Below, piece after piece: positions 36,001-45,000 of a stretch of 64,000 bases of DNA. The DNA is from Candidatus Brocadiia bacterium. Lineage in GTDB: Bacteria; Planctomycetota; Brocadiia; SM23-32. Made by a program: the position numbers. Position 1 is the first letter of the stretch. Each line of letters begins with the position of its first letter. The DNA is taken from assembly GCA_046538485.1 (NCBI GenBank), contig JBKHIT010000007.1, positions 48,165-112,164 on the forward strand, read 5' to 3'.

Positions 36001-39000
36001 GTGGACTTGAGGCGGACAGATGCCGGAAAATGCCAGGTAGCTGTCGGTCCGTATCGCCGAGGCGGACCTGCCGTTCGTTCTTCTGCTGTTTTGCTCCGAG
36101 ACCTGCGGTTTATGGCCCGCGTTCTGAACTCCAGCCTCCGGCTGAAGTCTAGTCCGCTCGCGGATCCGGACCCGCTTACAAATCCGCCGGGCTTGTCCCG
36201 GCGTGCTTAAGGATTCAACCTGCAATTGTGGGGTAAAAAGTTTTTTATGGCCATGCTAAGTCCCGATTGTGCAAATATTTCTGATCAACGCAAATGACTC
36301 TCAACATGAATGCGGGAGAAGGAAATTGCGCTGCAGGTCGTCTCGTGGTTTGGTGGCCGTGGATTCCAGGGTGAAAACTTTTTCAGCCCGGATTTTTTGA
36401 TGTAGAAGCGCTTCTACGAGGTCAGTTGGAGGCGCGGCGCTAAGAGTAATACAGCCAAATCCCTGCGAGGCCGCAACGAAGAAATGACCCGGCAGAATTG
36501 CTCCCTACGGGCCGGACGGCGGCGGCCCATCTGCGGCGTTGCAGTTCGGCGTGGACCCACTTGGGTCGAACTTCTCACTGCACCTTGCATCTGAACCACC
36601 GACGACCGGCTGAACCCACAACATCAAATGGAACGGACCACCAGCAGGTCCGGTGTCGATTAATTTGCCGGGATTTCCAATTTTTTGGGTTCAGGCGCCG
36701 GAAACGGTAGCTGTTTGATGATCTTTTTGACTGAGAAACGTTGCGGGAACTGGAGGTGACCCTTTTGCCATGAACGGAGTTTCTTGATGAACCCGGAGTT
36801 GGTTTGGTGCCATGCGGCGACAACTCGCTTGCCCCAGTATCGCAGCATCGCGGTGCCGAACCGGAAAGTTGAGAGTGATCTGAGGGAGGACCGGACCGAA
36901 TAGAACCGCCGGTTGGCGCGCATCGTGCCGAGTTGAAGTTCGAGGGGGGTCATTCTCGCGGGTTCGAAAACGACATGATGGCCGTCGTAAAGGGACCAGT
37001 CGCGGGTGATGATCCGATCTTCCTCCACCAATCGGTTGAACAACTGGGTTCCCGGAACCGGTGTGAGGATCAGGAACTGAACCGTATCGATTTGATTGTG
37101 GCTGGCAAATCCGATTGTTCTTTCAAAAGTTCCCTTGTCGTCGTGCTCCGCCCCGAACATGAACATGCCGTGGACCGGAATTCCGTAATCGTGGAACCCC
37201 TGGATGCTCTGTTTTATGTCGTTGACGCTCTGGTGTTTGTTGTAGTCGTCGAGGACTTTTTGGTTGACGGATTCGTAGCCGACATAGACACGGCTGCAGT
37301 TTGTCCGCTTGAGCAGGTCCATCATTTCTTCATCGCGCCATGTATCGGCGCGAACCTGCGCATACCAGCGTTTCGGGAGCCGGTTTTCGGTCAGGAGCCT
37401 GTCGAGCAGTTCTTTTGTTCGGCTCGGCACGGCCGTGAAATTGTCGTCGCACAAGAATACGTTTTTGCCTTTCCAGGATTTTGCTTCTTCCACCACCCGA
37501 TCGATGCTGGCCATCCGATATCGGCGTCCAAACATCCCGGAGACACAACAGAAAGTGCAATTATGCGGACACCCCCGGGTTGTGAGGGCAGGAGTAATTT
37601 TCATCTGGTCGTGGTCTGCGATCAACTCGAGGTTGGGCATCGGGATCTCGTCGAGTTCGCATTTGAGGGGCTGGCGTTCGTTATGCACGATATCTTCGCC
37701 GTCCCGGTAAACGAGATTGGGGATGGAGGAGAGATCTCTGTTGTTTCCCAGGGCATCGACGAAGGCGGGGAAAGATTCTTCGGCTTCGCCCCTGAGGACG
37801 TAGTCTCCGAACTCAAGCCCTTCTTCCGGCATGAAGTTCGCATGGGGTCCCCCGAAAATGACGGGGATATCTCTCAAACCGAGAAGCCGGGCCATTGCGT
37901 ATCCGCGGGGCGCGGTGGAGGAGGTTATGGAGATCCCCACCAGGTCGCTTTTAAATACGTCCCAGGCCCGCTGGGGGTTGAATTCGGTCAGGTCTTCGAC
38001 GTAGATCGTGACGTCATGGCCTTGCTGTTCGAGAATTGTGCCCAGGATTGGGAGCCCCAGCCGGGGGATGGCCAATCCGCTGTAAACGTGGTAGTCAGGG
38101 GAGCGAGGTTCAATCAGTGATATCTTCATGGCGTGCGGGTACCCGTGAATCTGAGTCGGTCGGGAGAGGATGGTTACGGACGAGACAGCCGGTCACGTGT
38201 TGGTCACCTGCTGTTTTGCTATCGCTTGAGATGATACGTGTGTTCAGTTGCAAAACTGCCTTCGGTACAGTCGGATAGTATGGGGAGCGGATGTGGTAGC
38301 GGGGGTGGGACTCGAACCCACGGCCTGAGGCTTATGAATCCTCCGCTCTAGCCAGCTGAGCTACCCCGCCACCGGTAAAACAACTACATATATATTATAA
38401 ATCTTCCCCCCCTTTTGTCAAGAAGCTGCTGTTCTGATTTGACAGCGGGACGACCACCTTCTATAGTCTTATTCTCTGACTCTGTCCGGGAGTGGGCGTC
38501 CGCCCCTCCATGGTTCGAGTGACTCCCATCTTGACGCCTTGATGGGCGTTGGAAATTGAAGACTCTGTGCGGCAGGAAATGAGGGAGAAAAAAATGCCGG
38601 TAAAAGAGATACCTGTGATCTGGTTGCAGGGAGGCGGATGCTCGGGTTGCACTGTGTCGCTTGCCAATTCCAAGTTCCCCTCTTTGCGTAACATTTTGAT
38701 CGATCAGCTCCTCCCCGGAGCGCACTTGAACCTTCTTTATCATCCCACTCTTATGGCTGGAGAAGGTGAGCAGGCGTTCTCGGTTCTGGAGGAACCCCCC
38801 GACGGGTATGTGCTGGCCGTGGAGGGGGCGATCCCCGAAAACGAGCGTTTCTGCACCATTGGTGAAAAGAACGGCGAAGAGGCGACCATGCTTGCCAAAT
38901 TCGTGGAACTTGCCCGGGACGCCTCGCTCGTCCTGGCCGTCGGGACATGTTCATCATTCGGCGGAATACCGAGCGGGCATCCAAACCCGGGACAGTATCG

Positions 39001-42000: not shown

Positions 42001-45000
42001 CACAACGAGCGACGGAAAATGCGAAGTCGATAGCAAAAGGGATTGTGGTTGGTACAGGATCTATGAGCGCTTGAAAGACTTGAAAGCACTCGATCAAATG
42101 AAAGAAATTGCCCCACCGAAAAAATACGGATTGTTCCTGCCGTCATACGAACGAATGACCAGCGAATTCTGGGCGGTCCAGGCTCAGTCAGAGCAAGGAG
42201 GGGACGATGAGTAATTTGTCAGAAGCGCTGGCAACGCAAGATTTTGTCGTAACCGGAGAAATCGGCCCCCCGAAGGGCGTAAACGTCGAAGAATGTCTCG
42301 AAGATGCCGAACATCTCCGAGGCAAAGTGGCCGCTATCAATGTCACCGATATCCAGAGCGCTGTGATGCGCGTGGGATCGATGGCGACCTGCAAACTCCT
42401 GATCGAGCGCGACCTTGAACCGATCCTGCAGATGGTCTGCCGGGACCGGAATCGTCTTGCGCTCCAGAGCGACCTGCTGAGCGCACACATCCTCGGCATT
42501 GAGAACGTCCTCTGCCTGACCGGCGACCACAATGTGCTCGGGGATCATCCCGATTCCAAACCGGTGTTCGATCTCGAAGCGGTCGGGTTGCTTGAGGCTG
42601 CCACGGGACTTATGGAGGGAGAGGATATCGCGGGCGAGGAACTCGACGGAGCCCCGGAACTGTTCCTCGGTGCCGTTGTCACCCCCGGAGCCGATCCGGT
42701 CGAACCCCAGATCATGCGGATGGAAAAAAAGATCGAGGCAGGGGCCAGGTTCTTCCAGACCCAGGCAATCTACGATACGGATCAGTTCGCCAATTTCATG
42801 AAACAGGTCGAAGGATTCGGGGTCCCCGTCCTCGGCGGGATTGTCCTGCTGAAATCGGCCGGAATGGCGCGCTTCATGAACGCGAACGTCGCCGGCGTCA
42901 ACGTGCCCGATCACCTGATCGAGCACATGAACAAAGATGATGGGAAAAGCAATAGCGAAAAAGCCGTGGATATCGCCGTTGAAACCATCAACGGACTCAA
43001 AGATATCTGTGATGGTGTCCACATCATGCCGCTCGGCTGGGACCACCTGGTGCCGGAGATCATCGAACGGTCCGGGCTGGGGTGATGACGGCGGCTGAAG
43101 GGATGACACGGAATAACACGGACGAACACGGACTGGCACGGACACAGGAACGCCGCTTTGAGGCTCATATCTTTTCCCGCGTTCTGAAGTCCAGTCCGCT
43201 GGCTGCTGAACAGGCTCCCTGAAAGCCCTCAGCGTTCGCTGAGACGGGCGGCGGCGAAGGTGGCAAGGTCCCCGCGGGTGGCTTCCTGGAGGTCTTGCAG
43301 GATTTTTGCCGAAGTCTCGGCCGCAACGCTGCCCAGCAGGTTGTAAACCGTCTGAATCTCCCGAGTGAAACGCGCCCCTTTTAACGCGCTCACCGTTTCC
43401 GCTGGCATCTCTTCCAGTAATCTCTCGATATCATGGCGCGTGAGCTCCTGAAGGGACGCGAACCGTCTGGAAAGGTGTCGCCAGTTTCTCCGGACCGCCG
43501 CCGCCTTCGCTCCCTCCAGCTTGTTCTGGCCGATCATGTAGGACCGGGTGCGGGCGCAGTAATCCTGGTACTGACGGACCATCGTCCACTCGCGCACAAA
43601 CTGTTCGGCGTAAGTTTCCGAATCGTGACGGGAAAGATAGGCCAGCCACGCCAGACGAGCAAAAATCTTCTCGGCGCCAAGACACGGCGAGGTCTCAAGC
43701 ATGGCCGTGTCGGGTCCGAGACGCCGCGCATAAGCCGCGCGGGTCCGGGCTTCTTCCTTATTCCATTTCTTGACTTTCTCACGACCTTCCTCAACAAGAT
43801 CGGCTTTGCGATACAGGGCGATGGCCAGGGAGAGGTCGCGACGCCGTTCGCGCGCGTCGGCTTTGGTTTCCAGGCGGAGTGACGGTGGATTCGACAGGAT
43901 TTTTCGGAAAGATACATCCCCCGCAAGAGCCAGCAGGAGGTAGGCGTTTCCGTGGAGCCGACTCGACGCTGTGCTCAGAGCTTTCTGGGCGAGTTTGGCC
44001 GCGTTGCCGGGCCGTTCCCGCTGCAGAGACGAAACCATACGCAGGCGGAGGCCGAGAGGCAGATTTGTGACGGTTGCCAGTTGTGTGGCGAGGGCACTGG
44101 CGATCTTCGGTCCTTTTGCTTCGAGAGCTTTGTTGATCACCCCGATTCGTTTTTTGAGTTTTTCGGGTTCCAGTTCCGTCCCCGCCCCGGAATCCTTCTC
44201 GCCTGGCAATCCCAATCCAGCTTCTCCGGTTTCCTCATCGAGCCCGCCGAGATCATCGAGTTCTGAATCGAGGGACGTGCTTCCCAGTTTTTCGAGCAGA
44301 TACTCCGTGTCGGCTACTTTCTGCGGGGCCTCAACCTCTCCGACCCCGGGTGCCGTCCAGACCATGGCGCTTTTGAGGAGTTTCGGCCAGTCTTGCCAGT
44401 CGAAGAAAGCCGTTGTGCCGTCGCTGGATTTGCCCCGGTGGTCGACCAGCAGGCACGCGACCCGTCCTTTCCCGACTTCCCACCCGACCAGAACGGGTCG
44501 ATTGCCGCTTTTCAGGAATACTTTGACATCCGGTCTTAGCACGACCTGATTCCGCACCCAGTAGACGGGACGCTGGCTGAAATCAAGATCCACTTTAAGT
44601 TCCGAGAAATCCGGACCCGGCTCGAATGGGCGCGGTTCTTCGGGATAGGTCGTGTCCGTCATGCCGGTGCAGCGGAACGGTAACAATTCTCGTTCGAGCA
44701 CTGTGTGCATGTAGCCCCCTTTGCCGAAGGCGTATTCCCCGCCGGTGAAGAGGACACCGCCGCCCGATTTGACGTATTCCGCCAGTGCGTAGCTGTTTTT
44801 GACCCCGATCGCGCAGTGGGGGATCCCGGTGAACAGAGTCAGGTCGAAATCGTTGTAAGCGTGAGCTGGGACGTTATTTGCGAGTCTCATGCCGGGTCTC
44901 TGGCGGACTGTTCCATACACCCACGCGTTGTGGATGTTGAATCGATTCAGCCTGGCAAACGCGAGGGGCACCCGCAGGCGATAATCCATCGCACCCCGGC

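What a model noticed while it worked through the whole genome (the two positions that open the first line are those of the whole stretch)
38594..43085. Signal-less group-1-like [NiFe] hydrogenase in one operon with the genome's only MetV-MetF methylene-THF reductase
Five overlapping or abutting genes g03564-g03568 encode a [NiFe] hydrogenase small subunit, large subunit, HycI-type maturation protease, MetV (PF12225) and MetF (MTHFR). The small subunit is most like periplasmic [NiFeSe]/[NiFe] enzymes but begins at their mature N-terminus (no Tat signal), so the enzyme should be cytoplasmic. It is the only MTHFR of a genome with a full Wood-Ljungdahl pathway and no HdrB/C, MvhD or RnfC2 partner beside MetVF; I propose a direct H2:methylene-THF oxidoreductase module (or, in reverse, H2 release from methyl-THF oxidation), a further answer to the open question of what donates electrons to MetVF-type reductases.
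Evidence so far: Gene overlaps 87629/87636, 89683/89689, 90371/90378 and a 12-nt gap before hycI. Pfam: Oxidored_q6+NiFe_hyd_SSU_C, NiFeSe_Hases (E 1e-151), HycI, PF12225 (7e-33), MTHFR (9e-40). g03564 residue 4 aligns with residue 38 of the Desulfomicrobium baculatum periplasmic small subunit (42% id) and residue 56 of Methanosarcina VhtG; large subunit 40% id, keeps RICGVC and C-terminal DPCLACAVH plus 15-aa extension. Pfam table: one MTHFR, no CCG or FlpD domain. neighbours.tsv: HycI within two genes of MTHFR in at least 14 of 31 SM23-32 genomes but 277 of 32,555 genomes with both. Of 24 loci in GTDB species genomes that encode a MetV relative (46-80% id, call 141), 22 also encode relatives of the hydroge [...]
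(Added by a program. Inside this text positions count along the whole contig: contig position 48,165 is position 1 of the stretch shown here. "Call 12" and the like, gene names such as g00115 and contig names such as C1 are that model's own, and its searches are not shown. The text may have been shortened before it was handed on; [...] marks where a part breaks off. The agent that wrote the report below was given it as the finding of a first reader that could run no searches.)

Follow-up and report, generated by a model that had tools for sequence, protein, structure and literature searches.

The report
Cytoplasmic hydrogenase wired to methylene-THF reductase
One operon joins a nickel-iron hydrogenase that has lost its export signal to the MetV-MetF enzyme of the Wood-Ljungdahl pathway, an arrangement kept in at least ten phyla, which suggests that hydrogen gas is coupled directly to this carbon-fixation step.

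Summary
Five co-directional genes (38594-43085, +) encode a [NiFe] hydrogenase small subunit, large subunit, maturation protease, MetV and MetF. The junctions are 8-, 7- and 8-nt overlaps and one 12-nt gap.

Starting from the hydrogenase rather than from MetV, I found 48 bacterial relatives of the large subunit.
- 34 of 48 loci carry metV right behind the hydrogenase, and 33 of these also carry metF.
- 15 of the 34 sit inside larger Wood-Ljungdahl clusters (fhs-fchA-folD-hydSL-hycI-metVF-acsB-cdhD).
- All 33 evaluable MetV-linked loci, and the window, lack a Tat signal.
- All 10 Tat-bearing relatives lack MetVF and sit beside NrfD or molybdopterin partners.

A complex prediction for HydS with MetV scored 0.61, against 0.00 for the best control. 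It places MetV at the distal Fe-S cluster and on a C-terminal tail of HydS.

Best reading: a cytoplasmic, reversible H2:methylene-THF oxidoreductase, which would be a fifth way of feeding MetVF.

Caveats:
- There are no transcript or enzyme data.
- The Tat/MetVF association rests on only about 3 evolutionary events.
- Many other carriers also hold a second, Hdr/MvhD-linked MTHFR.
- Two papers on syntrophic acetate oxidisers had already noted a signal-less [NiFe] hydrogenase next to metF in passing. A third paper filed the Armatimonadota hydrogenase as respiratory group 1a.

The parts
38439..38467 (+). sigma-70-like promoter candidate, TTGACA-17-TATAGT (11 of 12), 127 nt upstream of hydS
   Evidence: The region has 5 promoter-like sites against 2.6 +/- 2.0 in shuffles, so this is a consensus match only. 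No terminator-like site was found on + inside the five genes.
38594..39472 (+). hydS: [NiFe] hydrogenase small subunit, 292 aa, without Tat signal or C-terminal membrane helix. It has ligands for three Fe-S clusters and a C-terminal tail ...LPKIGQ...
   Evidence: Among the invariant columns of alignment A1 are C19, C119, C157, H197, C200, C220, C226, C235, C254 and C257.
39465..41006 (+). hydL: [NiFe] hydrogenase large subunit, 513 aa, with Cys (not Sec) at the active site and a 15-aa C-terminal extension
   Evidence: NF033181, 642.7 bits against a cut-off of 600; the best PDB matches are periplasmic [NiFeSe] large subunits.
41019..41525 (+). hycI/hybD-type maturation endopeptidase, 168 aa
   Evidence: PF01750, 7.3e-19. 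(TIGR00072, 114 bits against a cut-off of 47).
41519..42214 (+). metV: Fe-S subunit of the methylene-THF reductase, 231 aa, and the predicted docking partner of HydS
   Evidence: PF12225. (invariant Cys 27, 30, 66, 93, 130, 133, 136, 145, 150, 159, 168, 176). (interface residues 63, 67-70, 72-79, 82-83, 102-106, 122-127).
42207..43085 (+). metF: catalytic flavoprotein subunit of the methylene-THF reductase, 292 aa, and the only MTHFR found in this genome
   Evidence: PF02219, 4.3e-39; 1 match in G000.

Best explanation
HydS and HydL form a cytoplasmic [NiFe] hydrogenase. It descends from periplasmic group-1a/[NiFeSe]-type enzymes and has lost both the Tat signal and the membrane anchor. Instead of a cytochrome, its distal [4Fe-4S] cluster faces MetV, held in part by a C-terminal tail of HydS.

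Proposed electron path: H2 at the Ni-Fe site, then the three clusters of HydS, then the Fe-S clusters of MetV, then the flavin of MetF, then methylene-THF. The enzyme would be a soluble, non-energy-conserving, reversible H2:methylene-THF oxidoreductase.

Shown: gene content, absence of the signal, conserved synteny, and co-variation of Tat loss with MetVF linkage. Predicted: the HydS-MetV contact. Inferred: the electron path, the direction, and the absence of coupling.
For: (1) Operon anatomy. There are three overlaps and one 12-nt gap. Pfam finds no NAD(P)- or FAD-diaphorase, Hdr, MvhD or RnfC domain in any of the five proteins.

(2) Search from the hydrogenase side. Of the 60 loci found, 48 are bacterial. 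34 of 48 have metV directly after hydL or hycI, and 33 of those 34 also have metF. By their record titles they come from Planctomycetota, Chloroflexota, Armatimonadota/Hebobacteria, Aerophobetes, Elusimicrobiota, Omnitrophota, Ratteibacteria, Bacillota-labelled and unclassified MAGs.

(3) 15 of the 34 carry further Wood-Ljungdahl genes in the same cluster: FolD in 14, FTHFS in 7, AcsB in 6. An example is fhs-fchA-folD-hydS-hydL-hycI-metV-metF-acsB-cdhD in L029, L032, L036 and L038.

(4) Tat signal. The 33 evaluable MetV-linked loci and the window have no RRxF motif. The 10 loci with one (L030, 31, 34, 37, 45, 54, 55, 56, 58, 61) have no MetVF. There are 0 discordant cases. The Tat-bearing clade L030/31/34/37, together with L035 whose N-terminus I could not read, also carries a hydrophobic C-terminal anchor that the MetV-linked proteins lack. 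Tat-bearing loci lie beside NrfD (L030, L034) or molybdopterin-oxidoreductase plus 4Fe-4S genes.

(5) Complex prediction, HydS with MetV. Score 0.61 (runs 0.61, 0.79, 0.61); best of 3 controls 0.00. That mark was reached by 116 of 157 solved complexes and 2 of 215 mismatched pairs; these counts hold only roughly because my own alignments were used. The runs agree in at least 68% of contacts, and partner pLDDT is at least 82. The HydS interface residues 195, 197-198, 222 and 229-230 flank the distal-cluster ligands H197, C220 and C226, and residues 273 and 275-283 are the C-terminal tail. MetV has no sequence relative in the PDB, so a pass from memory is unlikely.

(6) In the closest relative, the cluster is split into hydS-hydL-metV on one contig and hycI-metF on another. 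This keeps MetV with the hydrogenase.

(7) Within the window's family, 16 of 31 genomes have a HydL relative. 14 of those 16 have MetF within 3 kb on the same contig. All 16 have acetyl-CoA synthase, against 10 of the 15 genomes without a HydL relative.

(8) Energetics (using E0' values of -414 and -200 mV as quoted in PMC9586279): dG0' = -41 kJ/mol, but only -13 to -18 kJ/mol at 1-10 Pa H2.
Against: No transcript, protein or activity data exist for any member.

On the HydL tree the Tat and MetVF states change only 3 times. There is only 1 independent pair on well-supported branches, so the perfect association cannot reach statistical significance. The Tat-bearing clades nest among the MetV-linked ones on a poorly resolved backbone.

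The HydS tail motif (LP[KR]IG-like) is missing in several MetV-linked loci (L039, L041, L042, L048, L051).

Many carriers keep a second MTHFR, and several of those copies lie next to FlpD. The hydrogenase-linked copy is therefore not generally the sole route.

Purified MetVF enzymes of acetogens accept reduced ferredoxin in vitro (PMC8760232, passages), so a soluble carrier could stand between the two enzymes.

A non-coupled H2-driven step contributes no ATP.
Confidence: 0.5

Rival explanations
1. The same complex, but its physiological job is the reverse reaction. It would oxidise methyl-THF to methylene-THF and release the electrons as H2, during syntrophic acetate or methyl-group oxidation at very low H2.
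For: Two papers on syntrophic acetate oxidisers note a signal-less [NiFe] hydrogenase beside a second metF copy. One suggests H2 production during acetate oxidation (PMC6295475). [quoted passage not shown]

All three HydS clusters have four ligands, as in the [NiFeSe] enzymes. That is the type known, from recall, for high H2-evolving activity.

Many carriers also have an Hdr/MvhD-type MTHFR, so the two copies could serve opposite directions.

This genome has RACo, DUF1638 and a MetV paralogue on the acetyl-CoA synthase contig.
Against: Equilibrium H2 is 0.006 Pa at a methyl/methylene ratio of 1, and 0.6 Pa at a ratio of 100. H2 release therefore needs an unusually efficient scavenger.

In many phyla the module lies in operons with fhs, folD and acsB, laid out like those of CO2-reducing acetogens; this does not fix the direction.

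I could not check whether the loci in the two papers are orthologous to this one.
Confidence: 0.2
2. The complex is electron-bifurcating. Two H2 are oxidised. The exergonic reduction of methylene-THF at the MetF flavin drives the endergonic reduction of ferredoxin, as MvhAGD-HdrABC does with heterodisulfide.
For: Bifurcation would remove the energetic 'waste' and supply reduced ferredoxin for CODH/ACS. This genome has no HdrB/C or MvhD. It otherwise has only group 3b-like, group 4 and sensory-type hydrogenases in the places found.

Bifurcation by MetVF-type enzymes has long been discussed (PMC8760232, passages).
Against: No ferredoxin-binding or second-flavin subunit is encoded in the operon or conserved beside it.

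Purified MetVF enzymes showed uncoupled ferredoxin oxidation, which those authors argue against bifurcation (PMC8760232).

At 1-10 Pa H2 the free energy available (-13 to -18 kJ/mol) is too small to push ferredoxin reduction.
Confidence: 0.12
3. There is co-regulation without a complex. The cytoplasmic hydrogenase reduces a soluble carrier (ferredoxin, flavodoxin or thioredoxin-like), and that carrier serves MetVF and other enzymes. The genes share an operon only for joint expression with the pathway.
For: MetVF enzymes take electrons from reduced ferredoxin in vitro (PMC8760232).

Operon membership alone is weak evidence of binding; the complex-prediction tool's own text says 7 of 44 blind-picked neighbours passed.

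The HydS tail is not universal.
Against: - Gene order stays fixed, with the hydrogenase placed immediately before metV, across at least ten phyla.
- The split operon of the closest relative keeps metV with hydSL.
- No carrier gene is conserved in the cluster.
- The complex prediction scores 0.61 against 0.00 for controls, with the interface at the distal cluster.
- H2 cannot reduce ferredoxin appreciably at environmental H2.
Confidence: 0.13
4. The hydrogenase is a cytoplasmic H2 sensor or regulator of the pathway. Alternatively it is still exported by hitch-hiking on another Tat protein.
For: Sensory (group 2b) hydrogenases also lack Tat signals.
Against: - No kinase or regulator lies in or beside the operon.
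- The genome has a separate sensor-type hydrogenase followed by a PAS histidine kinase and a sigma-54 response regulator on C10.
- A dedicated maturation protease and full active-site motifs are present.
- None of the five proteins starts with a Tat motif.
Confidence: 0.05

Closest known systems
MetVF-type methylene-THF reductases of acetogens, types II-IV (MetVF alone; MetVF-RnfC2; MetVF-HdrABC-MvhD), as classified in PMC8760232
   Same: The same MetF (PF02219) and MetV (PF12225) core with many conserved Cys. metV comes before metF with overlapping reading frames. [quoted passage not shown]
   Different: The electron-input module is a [NiFe] hydrogenase heterodimer instead of nothing, RnfC2 or Hdr/MvhD. 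None of the four published types contains a hydrogenase (passages read).
Periplasmic [NiFeSe]/[NiFe] group 1a hydrogenases (Desulfomicrobium baculatum 1CC1, Desulfovibrio vulgaris 2WPN)
   Same: These are the best sequence matches for both subunits. The Fe-S ligand pattern is the same, including a fourth Cys at the medial cluster. The active-site motifs and the C-terminal processing signal are shared.
   Different: - No Tat signal, no membrane anchor and no cytochrome partner
- Cys instead of Sec
- A cytoplasmic partner, MetV
- A C-terminal HydS tail that 1CC1 lacks (its alignment ends at query residue 270)
Signal-less [NiFe] hydrogenase next to a second metF copy in 'Ca. Syntrophonatronum acetioxidans' (PMC6295475) and 'Ca. 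Contubernalis alkaliaceticus' (PMC10608574)
   Same: A large and a small subunit without signal peptides, co-localised with methylene-THF reductase genes in Wood-Ljungdahl organisms. The authors suspected a direct role in acetate metabolism or H2 production.
   Different: These are single-genome remarks. The enzyme was called 'group 5' and membrane-anchored, or was proposed to oxidise NADH. No conserved module, Tat/MetVF co-variation or complex was described. Orthology to this locus is not tested here, because I had no sequences.
Multisubunit cytoplasmic hydrogenases that dock a partner on the small subunit (MvhAGD-HdrABC, FrhABG, sulfhydrogenase), and the hydrogen-dependent CO2 reductase of acetogens
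   Same: The working principle is the same. A hydrogenase dimer passes electrons through Fe-S clusters straight to a substrate-reducing module, which wires one pathway step to H2.
   Different: The hydrogenase lineage is different. Group 3 families match only weakly: FrhA 152 bits against a cut-off of 392, VhuA 101 bits against 800. HDCR uses an [FeFe] hydrogenase (recalled). This looks like a convergent architecture built from a group 1 enzyme.
H2-dependent methylene-THF reduction by Sporomusa ovata membranes (PMC9430772)
   Same: H2 serves as the ultimate reductant of methylene-THF.
   Different: There the path runs through periplasmic, Tat-exported, cytochrome b-linked hydrogenases, quinone and a type IV MTHFR, with energy conservation (passages). 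Here the proposed path is soluble and direct.

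Membership tests
[NiFe] hydrogenase, group 1 (periplasmic or membrane-bound uptake; subgroup 1a/[NiFeSe]-like) | Large subunit with the N-terminal RxCGxC and C-terminal DPCxxCxxH Ni-Fe ligands | tested here: met
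   RICGVC and DPCLACAVH are present. PF00374 7.4e-152. NF033181 scores 642.7 bits against a cut-off of 600.
[NiFe] hydrogenase, group 1 (periplasmic or membrane-bound uptake; subgroup 1a/[NiFeSe]-like) | Closest sequence relatives are group 1 enzymes | tested here: met
   The best PDB hits are periplasmic [NiFeSe] subunits. Three Hebobacteria MAGs from which loci L032, L038 and L060 come are each listed with one 'Hyd1A' hydrogenase in PMC10290634 (supplement file 1). HydDB itself was not run here.
[NiFe] hydrogenase, group 1 (periplasmic or membrane-bound uptake; subgroup 1a/[NiFeSe]-like) | Twin-arginine signal peptide on the small subunit | tested here: not met
   The frame opens only 15 codons upstream and holds no RRxF motif. 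The motif is also absent in all 33 evaluable MetV-linked relatives and present in 10 relatives without MetVF.
[NiFe] hydrogenase, group 1 (periplasmic or membrane-bound uptake; subgroup 1a/[NiFeSe]-like) | Membrane anchor or a cytochrome b/c3, NrfD or HybA-type partner | tested here: not met
   HydS has no hydrophobic C-terminus, unlike L030/31/34/35/37 and the archaeal relatives. No such gene lies in or beside the operon.
MetVF-type methylene-THF reductase | MetF TIM-barrel flavoprotein (PF02219) together with the Cys-rich MetV (PF12225), encoded in tandem | tested here: met
   Twelve Cys are invariant in 32 MetV sequences. Flavin and Fe-S content cannot be tested with these tools.
Type III MTHFR (MetVF-RnfC2) | An rnfC2 gene next to metVF | tested here: not met
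   The neighbours are a radical SAM/B12 gene, a tRNA-Met and a 1511-aa protein. A genome-wide RnfC search was not done.
Type IV MTHFR (MetVF-HdrABC-MvhD) | hdrCBA and mvhD next to metVF | tested here: not met
   There are no FlpD (PF02662) and no CCG (PF02754) matches anywhere in the 88%-complete genome.
[NiFe] hydrogenase, group 3 (cytoplasmic, multimeric, cofactor-coupled) | Sequence membership in the Frh, Mvh, Hox or sulfhydrogenase families | tested here: not met
   All matches are far below cut-off: FrhA 152 bits against 392.5, VhuA 101.5 against 800, ShyA 105 against 700. The resemblance is one of architecture only.
[NiFe] hydrogenase, group 2b (sensory) | No Tat signal, plus an adjacent histidine kinase or regulator | tested here: not met
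   No kinase lies near the operon. A separate hydrogenase with a PAS kinase and a sigma-54 regulator sits on C10.

The most novel reading that the evidence does not exclude
The HydSL-MetVF module is a fifth, widespread class of methylene-THF reductase that takes electrons straight from H2. It would also be flavin-based electron-bifurcating: 2 H2 + methylene-THF + oxidised ferredoxin give methyl-THF + reduced ferredoxin. That would give non-Firmicute Wood-Ljungdahl bacteria an Hdr-independent way to make low-potential electrons. It would also answer for this lineage how the most exergonic step of the pathway is harnessed.
Probability: 0.12. Interest if true: 0.95.

Novelty: new variant of a known kind. 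Interest (0 to 1): 0.78.

Why it matters
The physiological electron donor of MetVF-type reductases is an acknowledged open question in the bioenergetics of acetogenesis (PMC8760232). This module offers a concrete, testable answer for a large set of uncultured bacteria: H2 itself, through a dedicated cytoplasmic hydrogenase.

It also bears on how metagenomes are read. Hydrogenases of this clade are probably being typed as 'group 1a' and interpreted as respiratory, periplasmic uptake enzymes. PMC10290634 does this for a group 1a hydrogenase found in 11 of 13 Hebobacteria. The sequence evidence here says instead that such enzymes are cytoplasmic parts of the Wood-Ljungdahl pathway.

The clade also shows a periplasmic-type enzyme associated with a cytoplasmic partner, together with the absence of its signal peptide and membrane anchor.

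Tried and rejected
- Expression: the look-up of sequencing runs listed 6 DNA runs and no RNA holder. No reads were laid.
- MetV structure: AlphaFold2 gave pLDDT 78.5. Foldseek against the PDB gave no match at E <= 0.001. The N-terminal half is a generic alpha/beta fold resembling periplasmic-binding-protein lobes. No insight came from this.
- Phylogenetic independence: the independent-pairs test found 1 pair on supported branches and 3 on the best tree, too few for any test. Monophyly of the MetV-linked enzymes is not supported. The Tat-bearing clades L030-37 and L045 nest inside them on an unresolved backbone (quick tree, SH-aLRT only).
- Greedy ORF calling in G+C-rich loci was swamped by antisense ORFs. 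I replaced it with tblastn tables.
- Terminator scan: none on the + strand after metF.
- Literature: nine full-text searches and passages from 13 papers. Only PMC6295475 and PMC10608574 mention the co-localisation. The passages I read from the other 11 papers do not describe it. The library holds open-access papers and bioRxiv only, so a report in a subscription journal cannot be excluded. Supplements were read only for PMC10290634.
- Selenocysteine: rejected, because the active-site codon is Cys.
- L033 metV has an in-frame TAG and was left out of alignments A1 and A2.

Full report
WHAT IS THERE

Five genes on the + strand run from 38594 to 43085.
- hydS, 38594-39472
- hydL, 39465-41006
- a HycI/HybD-type protease, 41019-41525
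- metV, 41519-42214
- metF, 42207-43085

They are joined by 8-, 7- and 8-nt overlaps and one 12-nt gap. Pfam and NCBIfam confirm all five assignments. The large subunit passes the curated cut-off of NF033181 (642.7 bits against 600). None of the five proteins carries an NAD(P)-binding, Hdr, MvhD or RnfC domain.

A promoter-like site, TTGACA-17-TATAGT, lies 127 nt upstream at 38439-38467, and a GAGGGAG Shine-Dalgarno precedes the ATG. The upstream neighbours are a divergent tRNA-Met, a B12/radical-SAM gene and a NikR gene. The downstream neighbour is a convergent 1511-aa gene. The five genes therefore stand alone as a unit.

THE HYDROGENASE IS GROUP-1-LIKE BUT CYTOPLASMIC

Both subunits match periplasmic [NiFeSe]/[NiFe] enzymes best. 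HydS residues 3-270 align with residues 5-280 of the mature D. baculatum small subunit. The reading frame cannot be extended by more than 15 codons, and none of these forms a twin-arginine motif. HydS ends in a hydrophilic tail, not a membrane helix.

All ligands of three Fe-S clusters are conserved, including the His of the distal cluster (H197) and a fourth Cys at the medial cluster. The active site has Cys, not Sec, and a 15-residue extension for the protease.

THE LINKAGE IS CONSERVED AND FOUND WITHOUT USING MetV AS BAIT

I searched GTDB species genomes with HydL instead. That gave 60 loci: 48 bacterial (41-78% identity) and 12 from Methanosarcinaceae (31-39% in the best segment).

tblastn with the five window proteins and with Wood-Ljungdahl enzymes shows the following.
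- metV lies directly behind hydL or hycI in 34 of the 48 bacterial loci.
- metF follows in 33 of those 34. The exception is L014.
- 15 of the 34 carry more pathway genes in the same cluster: FolD in 14, FTHFS in 7, AcsB in 6. Pfam confirmed these identities on representatives.
- The full form is fhs-fchA-folD-hydS-hydL-hycI-metV-metF-acsB-cdhD in L029, L032, L036 and L038. The hydrogenase is inserted exactly between folD and metVF.

The 14 loci without metV divide as follows.
- 10 are Tat-bearing.
- 2 contigs end at or just after hycI (L043, which has folD upstream, and L057).
- L035 belongs to a Tat-bearing clade, but its N-terminus could not be read.
- L059 lacks hydS because the contig starts inside hydL.

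Tat LOSS AND MetVF LINKAGE GO TOGETHER

Among the rows where both traits can be read, 34 are Tat-less with MetV (33 loci plus the window). 10 are Tat-bearing without MetV. None is mixed.

The Tat-bearing relatives have the partners expected of periplasmic enzymes.
- A C-terminal hydrophobic anchor, in the clade L030/31/34/37 together with L035
- An NrfD-type membrane protein, in L030 and L034
- In Selenomonadales, a molybdopterin oxidoreductase plus a 4Fe-4S protein

This is a natural experiment in favour of a cytoplasmic, MetV-directed enzyme, but it is small. On a quick HydL tree the two traits change only 3 times, with one independent pair on supported branches. The Tat-bearing clades nest within the MetV-linked ones on an unresolved backbone.

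A PREDICTED CONTACT

I aligned 32 HydS and 32 MetV sequences from the same loci and submitted the pair. The score was 0.61 (runs 0.61, 0.79, 0.61), and the best of three controls scored 0.00. This mark was reached by 116 of 157 solved complexes and 2 of 215 mismatched pairs. These counts hold only roughly here because my own alignments were used. The runs share at least 68% of contacts, and partner pLDDT is at least 82.

The HydS side of the interface surrounds the distal-cluster ligands (residues 195, 197-198, 222, 229-230). It also includes the C-terminal tail (273, 275-283...LPKIGQ). The solved periplasmic homologue lacks this tail, and it recurs as LP[KR]IG-like in Planctomycetota, Chloroflexota and Armatimonadota and as EKIGE in several Omnitrophota-type loci. 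Not all MetV-linked loci have it. The MetV side (63, 67-70, 72-79, 82-83, 102-106, 122-127) flanks the invariant Cys66.

MetV has no sequence relative in the PDB and no clear fold match, so the pass is unlikely to be recalled from a solved complex. The score is a model's confidence, not a measurement.

A further hint comes from the closest relative (78% HydL identity). There the cluster is split into hydS-hydL-metV on one contig and hycI-metF on another. MetV stays with the hydrogenase.

GENOME CONTEXT

The window's genome is 88.3% complete.
- One MTHFR
- No FlpD and no CCG domain
- Acetyl-CoA synthase and CdhD on C54, FTHFS on C114, FolD on C26
- A MetV-like paralogue near RACo

Its other [NiFe] hydrogenases:
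- a sensor-type enzyme followed by a PAS kinase and a sigma-54 regulator
- a group 4 Mbh/Mrp-type complex
- a group 3b-like, NAD(P)-linked enzyme

In the window's family, 16 of 31 genomes have a HydL relative (15 at 62% identity or more, one at 45%). 14 of the 16 have MetF within 3 kb on the same contig. All 16 have acetyl-CoA synthase, against 10 of the 15 genomes without a HydL relative.

The claim of a sole MTHFR does not generalise.
- 5 of the 15 family carriers have a second full-length MTHFR.
- 4 of 5 carriers sampled from other lineages have a second MTHFR. Three of these second copies lie within about 2 kb of a FlpD-containing gene.
- The Omnitrophota genome has only the hydrogenase-linked copy and no FlpD.

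HOW IT MOST LIKELY WORKS

H2 is split at the Ni-Fe site. Electrons pass through the three HydS clusters to the MetV clusters and then to the MetF flavin, which reduces methylene-THF.

With E0' of -414 and -200 mV (values as quoted in PMC9586279), dG0' is -41 kJ/mol. At 1-10 Pa H2 it is only -13 to -18 kJ/mol. The reverse reaction becomes possible below 0.006-0.6 Pa, for methyl/methylene ratios of 1-100. At sediment-like H2 levels, direct coupling therefore wastes little and keeps the step feasible when H2 can no longer reduce NAD+ or ferredoxin.

I rate the readings as follows.
- Non-bifurcating reversible oxidoreductase running mainly in the reductive direction: 0.5
- Mainly oxidative, H2-evolving role: 0.2
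- Co-regulation through a soluble carrier: 0.13
- Bifurcation to ferredoxin: 0.12
- Sensor or export artefacts: 0.05

WHAT IS KNOWN

The published scheme of MTHFR types I-IV has no hydrogenase-linked form (PMC8760232, passages).

H2-dependent methylene-THF reduction in Sporomusa ovata runs through periplasmic hydrogenases and quinone (PMC9430772).

Two genome papers on haloalkaliphilic syntrophic acetate oxidisers did notice a signal-less [NiFe] hydrogenase beside a second metF.
- PMC6295475 called it 'group 5' and suggested regulation or H2 production.
- PMC10608574 proposed NADH oxidation. No NAD-binding domain is present in this window's operon.

PMC10290634 reports a HydDB 'group 1a' hydrogenase in 11 of 13 Hebobacteria and reads it as respiratory. 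Its supplement lists one Hyd1A for each of the three MAGs that gave my loci L032, L038 and L060. It does not mention MetVF.

I found no paper that describes the module as conserved across phyla, its exact co-variation with Tat loss, or a HydS-MetV complex. This rests on nine searches in open-access papers and bioRxiv only.

VERDICT

It is a new variant of known kinds: a MetVF reductase with a new input module, and a group-1-type hydrogenase redirected to a cytoplasmic partner. It is partly foreshadowed by two passing remarks in the literature. It is of high interest because it makes an old question directly testable.

Noticed in passing
window 38294-38370 (-) and 38394-38421 (-): A tRNA-Met (CAT) gene lies divergent from hydS and is preceded by a perfect TTGACA-16-TATAAT promoter match (12 of 12).
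   Followed up: partly
window 35163-35582 (-): A NikR-type nickel-responsive regulator (RHH_1 + NikR_C) lies 3 kb upstream of the [NiFe] hydrogenase operon. It may provide nickel-dependent control.
   Followed up: no
G000 C54:47112-47798 (L010:7112-7798): A second MetV-like (PF12225) gene, 37% identical to the operon's MetV and not next to an MTHFR. It sits among a ferredoxin, a thioredoxin/glutaredoxin-like gene, RACo and DUF1638, on the contig that also carries acetyl-CoA synthase. It may be a partner for another reductase or for corrinoid activation.
   Followed up: partly
G000 C10:1445-6573 (L011): A signal-less HydS/HydL pair (34% identical to the operon's) is followed by a PAS histidine kinase and a sigma-54 response regulator. 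It looks like an H2-sensing (group 2b-type) system that could regulate the other hydrogenases.
   Followed up: partly
G000 C10:9062-17375 and C115:16135-20511 (L011, L012): A group 4 Mbh/Mrp-type membrane hydrogenase is preceded by Fer4_22 and FAD/NAD-binding genes. There is also a group 3b-like four-subunit hydrogenase with its own protease.
   Followed up: partly
L014 (hydS-hydL-metV) and L074 (hycI-metF): In the closest relative genome the five-gene cluster is split in two. metV stays with the hydrogenase, and hycI stays with metF.
   Followed up: yes
L024:126-3061 and L025:1254-2150: Chloroflexota loci carry a second metV-metF pair (L024) or a second metF (L025, with a histidine kinase upstream) a few kb upstream of the hydrogenase-linked pair. 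That makes two MTHFR systems in one neighbourhood.
   Followed up: no
L033:6276-6986: This metV has an in-frame TAG where the other sequences have Gln, Tyr or similar (CVLD*TAGICP). It could be a sequencing error, a pseudogene or recoding. I did not examine it further.
   Followed up: no
L054, L055, L056, L058, L061 (about 2280-7400): The Tat-bearing Selenomonadales relatives form a cluster of molybdopterin oxidoreductase, 4Fe-4S dicluster protein, hydS and hydL. This may be a periplasmic formate- or other Mo-enzyme-linked hydrogenase.
   Followed up: no
window 43229-47764, 48297-52382, 54414-58427 (all -), with 52348-54394 and 58457-59167: Three giant ORFs (1511, 1361 and 1337 aa) have almost no Pfam match. 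They are interleaved with prepilin-type N-methylation-motif proteins and a GntR/periplasmic-binding regulator.
   Followed up: no
alignment A1, column of HydS C247: Five of 32 MetV-linked small subunits (L024, L025, L048, L050, L051) have V or L instead of the fourth medial-cluster Cys. This implies a [3Fe-4S] medial cluster in those lineages.
   Followed up: no
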